64,000 nt of DNA, taken from the NCBI GenBank assembly GCA_051294375.1, contig CM119264.1, forward strand, positions 19,537,590 through 19,601,589, read 5' to 3'. The DNA is from Paraspadella gotoi. Lineage: Eukaryota > Animalia > Chaetognatha. Of the stretch, positions 18,501-60,500 are shown piece after piece (the first letter of the stretch is position 1; the number at the start of each line of letters is the position of its first letter). A program made the translations under genes and the position numbers. Below the pieces are notes generated by a model. It saw nothing but the letters and a program-made list of their open reading frames with translations, ran no database searches and was not told the origin of the DNA.

Positions 18501-21500
18501 AAACTTATTATAGCCGAATAACGATTATGTGTTATAAGCTTTTTTTTTACCATCGGTTTATACGCTTCCTTCGTTCCATCCACGATTAGAATGACTCTGG
18601 GACTGTCTCATGCGTCGCTCGCAACAAAGGTGGTGAAGCACGCTTCTCCGTCCAACTCACAGTGCTCGAACGGGAGACGATCGTTCGACCGAGATTCGTC
18701 GATCGCCTACCAGCGAGCCTCACCGTGCAGGAGGGTAGGGAGATAGTTCTCAACGCTACGGCCGGTAAGTTCAATCAGTCCCTCCGTCCGTCGCTTTGTC
18801 CGTCCATTCGTCCATCAACTGCTTTTATTTTTGGCCCTGTAACTGTCAGTGGCCCCTAGCAAGTACTCATTCACAAAACCTCCCCCTACAGACGGCGTTC
18901 CGCCTCCCATGTTGACGTGGCAAAAGGACGGCGTTGTAGTAACGGACGGCCCAGGGTGTCGCATTTCCACAAACGGAGTGCAGACGCAACTCACCATCGA
19001 CGTGGCCACCGGTAACGATTCCGGTTGGTATCAGTGCAGCGCCGTCAACGTGGGCGGTACTGCGTCTACCAGGGGGAAGGTGCTTGTCGAAGGTGAGTTA
19101 GTGGGTACTTGTTCAATAGACTTGATGTTTATTTTCCGCGTGACAGCCACTAGCGTCAGCAACGACGACTAAAACGATAACGTCGTCAGCATTGAGATGA
19201 AGTGCCTTTGCACAAAGACGAAAACTAATATAGTATTCAGTACACATAGTTTTGCAAGATTAATTGTAGAAACTGATACTGATGCTTTTTTTTTTAAAGC
19301 TTATCCCGGCCAACCCGCTCAGCGTGTAACGCTGACTGGAAGACAAGTTGAGAAGCGGGAAGATGATGAAGACAAAACGTAAGTACTTGTCAATATTTGT
19401 GATTAAAATCCGTAACAAAATTTTTAGAATAAAAAGGTAGATCTTAAAATTAAATTAAAATTATCTTATTTTCTATTATTTTTATTTTCAAAAAGCTTTG
19501 TTTCTATAATTAAAAAGCATTAATGTTTTTTTAAAAATAACAAGTTAATTTTTTTATAATCAATAAGCTTAATTTTTTTTTATGTTTGGGGCGAGGGGTA
19601 TTTCGTAGCGAATCCACTTTTACTAGAAGATGGTTAATAACCCCATTGGTTATGCCTTCTCGAACTGTTAGAAGCGAAATGTTTAAATTTGGAAAAACAA
19701 TTTTTTAATAAAGAAATGTTTTAAAGATTACCATCGTTTTTCTTTGACCTATTAAAAATTAATTCTATACATACTTTTAATTCTCGGGCATATTATTTTG
19801 AAACCAACGAGATCACTTTTATTCTTAGCAATATGGCGTTCTCCAAAGATAGAATGCGGGAGATTGAACTTCTCGAAAGAAGGTCATCTCAAAAAGCCGC
19901 TCAACTCTTTGATGCGGAAAGGTCTCTTATTTTTTTTCATATACTAAAACGATTTTATGATATTATAAACAATGTTTCTGTGGACAAAACAAGCGTCGTT
20001 CAGATTTCACAGCTTCACTTTGATAAAAACTACCGCTTTCTAAAAAAGTATTGTTGAAATATACTAATTACGAAGGAACTAACGAAAATAAATATAATAA
20101 TTAGTAAAAGCCAATTGCGCATGGTTTGATCAATTGCTTTTGCAGTATTATTCCTGCTACATTTGTTTATGTCATTGGCAGTTTTCATGTAATATTTTTT
20201 CGCTGAACGAAATTTATCCGTAAAACTTTTTATTTTTTGTAAAAAAATAAACCACCTGTCGTTTTCGTACCCGCACGCCTCCCAACAATCATTTTTGTGA
20301 GCCCACTTTTTGTTTATTTTTTATGCTAAATCCGCTGACACATTATTTTGCTTAAAATTTTTAAATATCTTCAATATTCTTACCCCTTTTAAATACTCAT
20401 AACGATATATACTATGTATATATGTGTATTTATATATTCCGAATTTGTTCGCCTTCTTCTTTCCTTGTCACCTATCCTCAACCATTCCTCAACCGCCCCC
20501 GCATTCCCTTTTTTCCTTACTTCACACCAACAACCCCCCTTCTACCGTCCGCACGTTATTCGGCCCGCACGACAATCCTCTTTCCCCACCCATCCCAATA
20601 AAATCCTCCAGCGGTGAGTTTTCGACGGAGCGTATGAAAGCCCTGGCCGCCCTCGAGACGCGTCACGAGAAGCGCATGCGCGCACACGAGAAACAGCGCG
20701 CGCAAGCCGGCGCCAAGTCAGCGAATATGTCGCGGGAGCGCGTCAAGGCCATCGAGGCTTTGGAAACGAAGAAACGTGTTATCGAGGATGCCACCACCGT
20801 CGTTCCAACTTTCCTTGATGAGAAGAGAATGAAGGCAATCGAGGATTTCGAGAAAAAACATGCCGAGGCTCAGCGAGAAGAGTACGTGTGTTGAGAGAGA
20901 TTGTGTGTTGTCGTTGTTCGTGTCGTTATTGTAATTATCTCGCCTGACGGGGCAAAGCCCGTCTTGGCGATATAAAGCGAAATTCAGGCTTCTTTGTGAT
21001 GTCGTCGTCGTTGGCGTCGTCAGCATCACGCTTTTTTGCAATCATGGCTATTGAAAGTGAGATATCATAGGGAGTTGAAATTTTATATATGGCTTCTAAT
21101 CATCAAGATCTTTAAACTTGTCAAGTTGTCATGTTTCATATCAATATTCGTATTTGTTTATGTTTTATTTACAAAACAAAAATGTTTTAATTATATGTCG
21201 CTTTCTCTCTTTCTTATAATTATATGTCGCTCTCTCTCCCTCTTTCTTATAATTATATGTCGCTCTCTCTCCCTCTCTCTATTTTTCTCCGTCACTGCTT
21301 CTTCTGATTTGTCTAAAAACGAGTTCCGGCTCTGCAGCGGCGGTCCAGCGGCTGTCCAGCTTCTCTCTATCTTTCTCTCTCTCTCTCTCTCTCTGATTAT
21401 TTTTTTTCCTTCTAAAAACTTTTATTTTCGCCATTTATTCCGCTCTTTTTTCTCAAAACAAAATACATGAGAAATGGCCTATTAAAAAAAAAATGAAAGA

Positions 21501-57500: not shown

Positions 57501-60500
57501 TTTATTAAAGGACGAACATTTTTCGGCTCAAATTCGAGCCTTCATCAGCGCCAAATTGTTTTGTGAATAATTCACAATTTTTTTCATTTAAAGGAGGAGA
57601 GAGAGAGAGAAAGGGAAAAGTTTTTAACACAGAGTTTAGAAAGGACAGTGATCAGTGGTGATAATAGGCCAAGGGTAAGGACAGACTGAATTTAGTTTTG
57701 AAAAGAAGTGAAATGGTCAATTGGGAAGAGAGAGAGAGACAGGGAGAGAGAAAAGAATACATTTCTTAATGTACAACAGTTAAAAAGATTTTTGTATACT
57801 GAAATTTTTAACATTGACAATTAAATATTAATAAATAATTGAAGAAAAAGAAAAAATAGAAAATGAAAGAGATACAATTGGTGAGGGATAGTAAAGTAAT
57901 TAGTAAAGTGAAAGGTTAAGAATTAAGAAAGAGCTCAAAATGAGCAGGCGTATCCGGCCAAAGAGACATTCGAATAGCACTGGGAATATTCCCTCAAGGA
58001 AGCCTACTCAATCCAGCACTAACATGCTCGGTCGAACTGTCTTCTCAACCAATGACCCGGCCTTATCGTCCAAGCCTCTCATTTGCAAAAGCCAAGGGGG
58101 GCCAGCTCATTTTGAGCTCTTTCTTAATTCTTAACCTTTTGTATCTCTTTCATTTTCTTTTTTCTTTTCTTTTTCTTCAATTATTTATTAATAGTTAATG
58201 TTAAAAATTTCCAGTATATACAAAAATCTTTTTAAGAAATGTATTATTTTCTCTCTCCCTGTCTCTCTCTCTCTCTTCCAATTGACCATTTCACTTCTTT
58301 TCAAAACTAAATTCAATCTGTCTTTACCCTTGGGCTTTTCTCACCACTGATCACCGTCCTTTCTAAACTCTGTGTTGGAAACTTTTCCCTCTCTCTCTCT
58401 CCTCCTTTCAATGAAAAAAATTGTGAATAATTCACAAAACATTTTGGCGCTGATGAAGGCTCGAATTTGAGCCGAAACATGTTCGTCCTTTAATAATATA
58501 TGCGATTTTATTCAAATACAACGAGGTTGATTCAGTACAATCATCATCAACAAACAAACAAACAAAGACATAAAATAGAGAGAAAAAAAACAGTTAATTA
58601 ATAAAATTGTTGTTACAAATAATTAAACTGTCTATAATGTAATATTATTATAAATATAATAATAGTATTATAATATTAATATTAATATGATATTCAGTAA
58701 TTATTCAAGTAAAAGATAACTACTACCTCAAATTTTTTTTATTTTTCAGAATTATAACTGAAACTCAACTGCCGGAGGGTCATGAGACAGTGAAAAAAAT
58801 AGTTGATATGGAAGAATGGATGGAAGCACAGAGAAAAGCACAGTTTGAATTTGAAGAAACAGAAGAACCTGGAATACCTCTTTTTCCGGTTCCCTTATCT
58901 CCTGTCACGATCCCAGAAATGGATTGTGCTAAATTTATTTGCAAAGTGAAGGCGTTTCCTGCTGCAAAAGTCCATTGGTTTATAAATGGAAAAATGGTTG
59001 TCAATTCGGCACGATATCGCATCACATATGATGGCATGATGCATCAGCTAGAAATTCCACAGGTGATCAATCTTAACTTAAGTGATATAAATAATATTTT
59101 TTACATTGGAATTTTAATCATTAGCTTATAAACAATTTTCTTTTCTTTAATGAATCTTTCGGGATGGCTCGATTCTTATAATTGTTATTGTTTTAAACAT
59201 TACAATAACTTTATTTTATTTTATTAAATTAATTCAGGCTAAGACTTGGGATGAAGGAGAAATTAAAATTGTTGCAAAAAACAAGCTTGGTGTTGGAGTT
59301 TCAAAAACAACTTTAACATTGGTTGAAAGAGATGATTACAGGTTTGCTGAAATTTTTTGAAATATAATAATTGTTCCCAATTCTTATTCAAATTTTTATT
59401 ATATAACAGAAAGCTTCTTAAACGAAATGTTGAATGCGATACACACCTGTACTATTCACGACATGGAAAATATACTGCTGAAAATGAAGAGCTAGAAAAA
59501 GCTTATCTCGAAAAGCAAAGAAAGGCATTTACAATCAAGCAACATGAAGGTAAACTACAAAAAAAAAGCCATGTTAAGTTTAAGATTATAGTTAAAATGA
59601 ATAAAATAAATTAATGTCAAGCAAAAGTTTTAAGTTTAAAATCAAACTTCTAATTCTACTAATTTTTGTATAATGTTTTCACTACTTATGATGTGCAAAA
59701 GTAAATTAATTATGTTTTTGAAACTTACTGAAGGAAGCGGTTGCTGAACACCGCGTTGTTAAGAAGGCGAGCGCATACTGAATCCAATTATTAATGTTAT
59801 TTCGATGGTAACAAAATTATTTTTTGATTCATAAATTTTAGATAAAACTATTCATCGAGTTAATCGACAACTTGGAGAGCAAGTTGAATTACGCCATGTT
59901 GGTGTTGCACCAAAACTAAAGTTACATCATGATGAGGATTGTAAGACTTTATTTTCAAAAATTTGGCTTTTGGACTGTTTTACATAATAACATAAAATGC
60001 AAAAATATCATAATTTCTTTTGAAATATGAAGTTAAATATGTTTTATATTTAATTTTAAGTAGTAATCTGATATCTTTGCATGATTAGGTTTGCAGTTAC
60101 TAATTTTTTTTTCTATTAAGTTAAAACCCTTGAGCCCAAATTTGCAATACCTGAACTGCAACATATTTCCCGTATAGAATTGCATAAAAATGAAACCAGC
60201 CAAAAAGATGCTATTGCTAAAACACCATATCAAAAACGAGCTCCTGCAATGGTTAAAGGTGGACTACCTAATTTAAAAGAAAAGGGAAAATCTGCGCCTC
60301 CAGCTATGAAACCAGATTGTAAGGCATATTTTTGAAATAGTTATAAAACATTTGCCTGAATTAATCCAGCATCAACAGAGCTTAAACTGACTGCAACAAT
60401 TTTTAAAAGATCTGTAATCAATAACTGTCACGAGACAACAATTTTTTTTAATTCATAATGAATTTATTATACAAAAAATAAAAAAGAAAAGGTCAGGTGA

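What the first reader, a model, noticed from the sequence alone, without database searches (positions are those of the whole stretch)
19092..59341. Kettin Ig run apparently collapsed to a single module
Seen: between the DSGWYQC Ig (ends 19092) and the Ig ending ERDDYR (59341) I find only one kettin-signature Ig (GDPTMKVEWF...DFGYV). There is no N gap in this interval and no further Ig exon is visible in the introns. Established: Drosophila kettin has 35 Ig domains, and from memory most lie between these two landmarks. Inference: most kettin Igs were lost in this lineage, or never expanded, which would change Z-disc/I-band length and thin-filament anchoring.
Basis: partly seen in the sequence, partly recalled or inferred. 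Interest (0 to 1): 0.75.

Follow-up and report, generated by a model that had tools for sequence, protein, structure and literature searches.

The report
Titin with Ig-free kettin spacer repeats
This animal's titin muscle gene has only one kettin-type Ig domain where insects have 26, as vertebrates do, and in that place carries 15 small optional exons of short helical repeats that resemble kettin's proposed actin-gripping motif and likely tune how much thin filament the protein holds.

Summary
The single kettin-type Ig between the two landmarks is real. No other Ig is found, five spliced proteins from close relatives have the same layout, and read depth over the Ig is single-copy. 'Collapse' is not shown: grouper, a second vertebrate-type titin and Saccoglossus also have exactly one Ig there, Macrostomum's main titin has none, and 24-26 occur in arthropods and nematodes. 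Relatives splice them in at least six patterns. The repeats match kettin spacer motif II, the proposed actin site, in both search directions. Likely mechanism (inferred, untested): a splice-tunable thin-filament grip, one repeat per actin subunit, at the site where ecdysozoans amplified Ig plus spacer. The animal is a non-arthropod protostome; arrow worm is a guess. New variant of a known kind.

The parts
17431..18763 (+). Exons of the Ig matching kettin Ig3 (titin Ig6) and the start of the next Ig
   Evidence: tblastn of P0001, 74-90% identity; Ig HMM
18892..19092 (+). 3' exon of the DSGWYQC Ig (kettin Ig4, titin Ig7); phase-1 donor
19300..19378 (+). Bridging exon, phase 1 to phase 2; poorly conserved (20-28%)
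   Evidence: assignment by splice sites and frame
19829..19921 (+). Repeat exon r1, 93 nt, 1 motif; 3' boundary could be 19882
   Evidence: 37% to P0001/P0126, collinear
20612..20881 (+). Repeat exon r2-4, 270 nt, 3 motifs
   Evidence: 64%
22847..22942 (+). Repeat exon r5, 96 nt
   Evidence: 58%
28302..28382 (+). Repeat exon r6, 81 nt
   Evidence: 77%
32568..32660 (+). Repeat exon r7, 93 nt
   Evidence: 60%, P0003 only
38646..38738 (+). Repeat exon r8, 93 nt
   Evidence: 60%, P0003 only
42639..42827 (+). Repeat exon r9-10, 189 nt, 2 motifs, GC donor
   Evidence: 63%
45181..45273 (+). Repeat exon r11, 93 nt
   Evidence: 63%
48170..48420 (+). Repeat exons r12a (48170-48265) and r12b (48340-48420); predicted from motif and splice sites, no clear counterpart in relatives
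49555..49719 (+). Repeat exon r13-14, 165 nt; first repeat shortened by about one heptad against P0002
   Evidence: 44%
49789..50634 (+). Repeat exons r15 (49789-49878), r16 (49963-50058), r17 (50220-50318), r18 (50542-50634)
   Evidence: 59%, 45%, 41%, 50% best matches
53380..53478 (+). Non-repeat cassette exon; donor uncertain (53478 or 53511)
   Evidence: 44% to P0002, P0131
54429..54515 (+). Pre-Ig linker exon with the (D/N)-(L/M)-(F/Y)-D motif shared with fly Ig30 and vertebrate Ig8
   Evidence: 61-68%
55141..57389 (+). The single kettin-type Ig, two exons (55141-55278, 57249-57389)
   Evidence: 91%
58750..59341 (+). Canonical spacer (motifs I and II) and the ERDDYR Ig (kettin Ig31, titin Ig9); exons 58750-59062 and 59238-59341

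Best explanation
The window holds a titin/Sallimus orthologue with one kettin-type Ig, as in vertebrates, preceded by 15 skippable exons of Ig-free helical repeats that are likely amplified copies of the kettin spacer motif and would bind the thin filament about one repeat per actin subunit. Shown: single Ig, exon array, open frame, phase symmetry, several splice patterns in relatives, similarity to spacer motif II. Inferred: origin by tandem exon duplication of the motif without its Ig; actin as the partner; splicing as a way to set the length of the gripped segment next to the Z-disc in different muscles; a one-Ig (or few-Ig) ancestor rather than collapse of a 26-Ig array.
For: One Ig between landmarks in 4 of 4 relatives that hold both landmarks whole, and in P0002, which starts inside the first. 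One Ig in 5 of 5 deuterostome-side sequences, 24-26 in 14 of 14 reliably mapped ecdysozoans. All 16 cassette exons are multiples of 3 and phase 2-2, 15 with AG/GT and one AG/GC; 12 of 16 have a clear collinear counterpart in relatives. 18 motifs, median spacing 31 residues. A repeat-derived score puts 177 of its top 200 windows, of 128,327 non-Ig windows in 107 kettins, on spacer motif II in register; a kettin motif II matrix scores 10 of 12 single-motif repeat exons above shuffles at p<=0.05. Hakeda 2000 (PMC3207145, passages) names IQXLE a putative actin site and reports that an Ig alone does not bind actin while an Ig with spacers does. Kulke 2001 (PMC2196178, passages) gives one module per actin protomer. 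A low-confidence model shows the repeats as separate helices.
Against: No binding data. The motif is five residues on an amphipathic helix, so convergence is possible; repeat scores on the kettin matrix (-4 to 16 bits) are below kettin's own median of 20. Spacer motif I is absent, and spacers have not been shown to bind actin without an Ig. The repeats fail the VxxLxxxFE actin motif at P1 and P8 (PMC13364712). Several have a heptad pattern and weakly hit coiled-coil entries. Macrostomum and two unnamed proteins show kettin-type arrays outside named Ecdysozoa, so an ancestral protostome array stays possible. Splicing is seen only in relatives, which may be several species.
Confidence: 0.55

Rival explanations
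1. True collapse with spacers kept: a protostome ancestor had a kettin array, this lineage deleted the Ig domains, and the repeats are what remains of the spacers.
For: 18 motifs is near the 25 motif-bearing fly spacers; they lie exactly where the array lies; Macrostomum has array fragments and two unnamed proteins have 3 kettin Igs; some nematode spacers are nearly identical to the repeats.
Against: One Ig in the hemichordate and vertebrates, none in Macrostomum's main titin models; Macrostomum array modules form their own clade (0.97), which fits separate expansion; repeats lack motif I and r7-r18 share an extended pattern of their own, each on a similar-sized exon, which fits local exon duplication.
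Confidence: 0.2
2. The repeats are a splice-variable helical rod, coiled coil or elastic spacer that changes I-band length or self-association and does not bind actin.
For: Heptad-like I-x-x-L-x-x-x-L pattern and E/R/K richness; best PDB and Pfam hits are generic coiled coils.
Against: Helices are broken every ~31 residues; the conserved part is the A-I-x-x-L-E core (E invariant in 15 of 15), the same core as kettin's.
Confidence: 0.15
3. The repeats bind alpha-actinin, working like vertebrate titin Z-repeats to set Z-disc cross-link number.
For: Alternatively spliced short helices near the Z-disc end; kettin Ig plus spacer binds alpha-actinin too.
Against: Wrong position (vertebrate Z-repeats lie between Ig2 and Ig3, recalled); first position of the recalled 1-4-5-8 pattern is Arg in 12 of 18 repeats.
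Confidence: 0.08
4. Assembly artefact: a tandem Ig array was collapsed or cut out.
For: Read depth was tested only for 38850-58849; no listed contig spans the whole stretch.
Against: Spliced proteins of relatives run across with one Ig; unique contigs have depth 38-48, and the contig over the Ig 5' exon has 42.
Confidence: 0.02

Closest known systems
Drosophila kettin / Sallimus (P0030, D. erecta, 4796 aa, 35 Ig)
   Same: Orthologous flanking Igs (44% and 42% identity), kettin-type Ig, pre-Ig linker motif, spacer with motifs I and II before the last Ig
   Different: 1 instead of 26 kettin-type Igs; motif II-like units occur without Ig or motif I; no counterpart of kettin Ig2 found
Vertebrate and hemichordate titin, Ig7-Ig8-Ig9 (P0112, P0115, P0134)
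   Same: Exactly one kettin-type Ig between the same landmarks
   Different: Their Ig7-Ig8 linker is 53 residues; here it is 179-525 residues in relatives and about 660 with all exons included
Nebulin repeats
   Same: Tandem Ig-free units of similar size; nebulin binds actin 1:1 (PMC9140763, passages)
   Different: No SDxxYK motif, no Pfam match; analogy only
Vertebrate titin Z-repeats
   Same: Alternatively spliced short helical repeats near the Z-disc end (recalled)
   Different: Other position in the gene, other motif, no Pfam match
Short linear F-actin motif VxxLxxxFE (Lifeact/ITPKA)
   Same: Short helix ending in hydrophobic-Glu
   Different: P1 is mostly Arg and P8 mostly Leu

Membership tests
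Titin/Sallimus orthologue | Ig6-Ig7 pair with 6-residue linker, kettin-type Ig and Ig9 in order | tested here: met
Titin/Sallimus orthologue | PEVK and further C-terminal I-band parts | not testable with these tools
   gene runs past the window; no genome held
Kettin (ecdysozoan type) | Array of about 25 Ig-plus-spacer modules | tested here: not met
   one module
Kettin spacer | Motif II (IQXLE) | tested here: met
   reciprocal match
Kettin spacer | Motif I (IXXXQH(P/E)) upstream of motif II | tested here: not met
   absent from the repeat exons, present only in the spacer at 58750
Kettin spacer | Binds actin | not tested
SFM actin motif VxxLxxxFE | Hydrophobic P1 and Phe at P8 | tested here: not met
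   P1 Arg in 12 of 18, P8 Leu in 15 of 18
Nebulin repeat | SDxxYK motif, Pfam match | tested here: not met
Titin Z-repeat | Pfam match and position between Ig2 and Ig3 | tested here: not met

The most novel reading that the evidence does not exclude
Two protostome lineages enlarged the thin-filament grip of titin at the same site by different routes: ecdysozoans amplified Ig plus spacer, this lineage (possibly arrow worms) amplified the bare spacer helix as skippable exons, making a nebulin-like, splice-programmable actin ruler inside titin. The repeats would then be the minimal kettin actin-binding element, isolated by evolution.
Probability: 0.35. Interest if true: 0.75.

Novelty: new variant of a known kind. 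Interest (0 to 1): 0.5.

Why it matters
The proposal that kettin spacers are the actin-binding sites dates from 2000 and rests on Ig-plus-spacer fragments. A natural Ig-free array of the motif makes that directly testable with short peptides. It also reverses the usual reading of kettin: the 26-Ig array looks like a derived expansion of one module that vertebrate titin still has, and module number at this site varies from 0 to 26 or more across animals.

Tried and rejected
No whole genome held, so no assembly-wide search. No RNA holder listed; X8, guessed as RNA, covers introns and behaves as DNA. Read depth for 19-39 kb is untested. Complex prediction of a repeat with actin was not available, so no verdict. 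ESM Atlas gave no usable hit for the repeat region, which shows neither novelty nor absence. Pfam and PDB gave only weak generic helix hits. The single-sequence fold of P0131 has mean pLDDT 42, so no fold search was run. The tree of 146 Ig domains did not resolve which fly Ig the retained one matches: it grouped weakly with fly Ig10/15, and the link to Ig30 rests on the upstream linker motif. Trees from about 300-450 residues put the relatives outside arthropods (98-100) and deuterostomes (89-98), with nematodes (78) in one tree and Macrostomum (73) in the other; phylum not fixed. The copepod row was mis-mapped and Priapulus lacks Ig9; both were dropped from counts. The null scan is small (0 of 17 forward windows outside called exons, 2 of 36 reverse). 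The repeat HMM found no Ig-free array in 254 long proteins. Three look-ups of earlier findings returned nothing. No tRNA genes.

Full report
Observation. The landmark exons end at 19092 and 59341 as stated, and the window's only N run is at 3093-3102. An HMM built from 3,207 Ig domains detects Ig fragments as short as 25 residues elsewhere in the window but, between the landmarks, only the two halves of one kettin-type Ig. tblastn with 508 Ig domains gave 0 hits at E<=1e-3 in the remaining stretches and 777 with the Ig exons included.

Not an artefact. A search with the last Ig exon returned 4 proteins of 93-94% identity among 90 candidates; cluster look-up added 7 more. They run across many window exons without introns, so they come from spliced RNA of close relatives (that their source is a marine transcript catalogue is recalled). 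P0001, P0126, P0129 and P0131 hold both landmarks with one Ig between; P0002 starts inside the first landmark and agrees. In 38850-58849, unique contigs of run X1 have depth 38-48 and the one over the Ig 5' exon 42; X1 may be the source of the assembly, which still allows a depth test. The 19-39 kb half was not tested this way.

Is one Ig unusual? In D. erecta kettin the landmarks are Ig4 and Ig31, with 26 Igs between. Of 23 proteins mapped, 14 ecdysozoans have 24-26, five deuterostome-side sequences have 1 (grouper, Saccoglossus, three unnamed; the label 'mammal' for P0115 is my inference), the two relatives have 1, and two rows were dropped as unmappable. Macrostomum titin models and one unnamed protein have 0, while Macrostomum also has separate array fragments whose modules form their own clade. 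Two unnamed proteins have 3. So the number is labile and one is the deuterostome state. Limits: one search listed 120 of 461 hits, ranked in favour of arrays; 31 of 147 new proteins had kettin-type Igs and I could look up names for only 20 proteins; no named mollusc, annelid or gnathiferan was seen. The names Z7-Z9 for titin Ig7-Ig9 are recalled.

What fills the interval. A repeat HMM from the relatives, run on the window, and a splice-site search gave 15 repeat exons from 19829 to 50634 plus one non-repeat cassette. All 16 are multiples of 3 and phase 2-2. With the bridging, linker and Ig exons they read as 824 codons without a stop. They code 18 copies of R-x-x-A-I-x-x-L-E, median spacing 31 residues. 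Twelve of 16 have a clear collinear counterpart in relatives; r16 and r17 are weaker; r12a and r12b have none. Seven relative proteins covering the region show at least six exon combinations. The r2-4 exon occurs in 3 of 7 and the r5-onward exons in the other 4, never together. These proteins may come from more than one species.

What the repeats resemble. Of 2,090 kettin spacers, 1,809 carry [ILV]xx[LIMT]E, Hakeda's motif II. Scoring 128,327 non-Ig windows of 107 kettins with the repeats put 177 of the top 200 on that motif in register (55% of windows lie in spacers, far fewer in register). Conversely a motif II matrix scored 10 of 12 single-motif repeat exons above shuffles at p<=0.05, though below kettin's own median; the non-repeat cassette did not score. 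Motif I is missing. Pfam, PDB and the Atlas gave nothing specific.

Mechanism. Hakeda 2000 reports that an Ig alone does not bind actin, an Ig with spacers does, and proposes the spacer motifs as the sites; Kulke 2001 gives one module per actin protomer. A 31-residue unit, mostly helix with a short break (low confidence), could span one actin subunit along a strand, as nebulin repeats do (1:1 binding; dimensions recalled). I infer a splice-tunable thin-filament grip of 3 to about 18 sites beside the Z-disc, made by exon duplication of the spacer helix. Binding is untested. Rivals are Ig deletion from an ancestral array, a non-binding helical rod, and alpha-actinin binding.

Organism. Trees place the relatives outside arthropods and deuterostomes, weakly with Macrostomum. 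An arrow worm would fit a marine protostome without named close relatives, but this is a guess.

Literature. Eight full-text searches listed no paper describing Ig-free kettin-spacer repeats or counting kettin Igs across bilaterians; the library lacks most subscription journals, where the main kettin papers lie. Seen: passages of PMC3207145, PMC2196178, PMC12460157, PMC13364712, PMC6098106, PMC12063666, PMC9140763; abstract and first part of the Discussion of PMC12198301. The supplement of PMC6098106 compares novex-3 with kettin; I did not read it and it may already note the shared module.

Verdict. The single Ig is real but ordinary as such; the unnoticed cassette array of spacer-like helices is the new part. 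New variant of a known kind, interest 0.5.

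Noticed in passing
window 15940-17548: No counterpart of kettin Ig2 (titin Ig5) in the window or in relatives P0001/P0126; the stretch is a 108-residue linker with one motif II-like helix at 17440.
   Followed up: partly
window 83-3738 and 8976-11710: Four more Igs, then two Igs that match vertebrate titin Ig1 and Ig2 best in part, behind a Ser/Gln-rich exon near 8810; the gene may have an internal start or upstream Zormin-like part.
   Followed up: partly
P0003 and P0129: Relatives have a long non-repeat alternative exon (about 160 residues, with a motif at each end) after r11 that tblastn did not find in the window.
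   Followed up: partly
window 59841-61152: Further alternative exons after the ERDDYR Ig (59841-59939, 60138-60302, 61069-61152) are used in different combinations by relatives.
   Followed up: no
window 42827-42829: GC donor on the two-repeat exon r9-10.
   Followed up: yes
window 30625-31456, 39517-40183, 48855-49240, 52290-52520: High-copy interspersed repeats in the introns (summed contig depth over 200,000), including a 323-base unit in tandem.
   Followed up: no
P0139, P0146, P0286-P0288 (Macrostomum lignano): Titin models with no kettin-type Ig between Ig7 and Ig9, while separate short entries hold kettin-type arrays.
   Followed up: partly
P0051 (Priapulus caudatus): The first 12 kettin-type Igs have 4-7 residue linkers without spacer motifs: the mirror case, Ig amplified without spacer.
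   Followed up: no
L001-L010: Actin-like ORFs of 302-381 residues on contigs of the viral collection; the five aligned are 68-72% identical to an animal-type actin.
   Followed up: no
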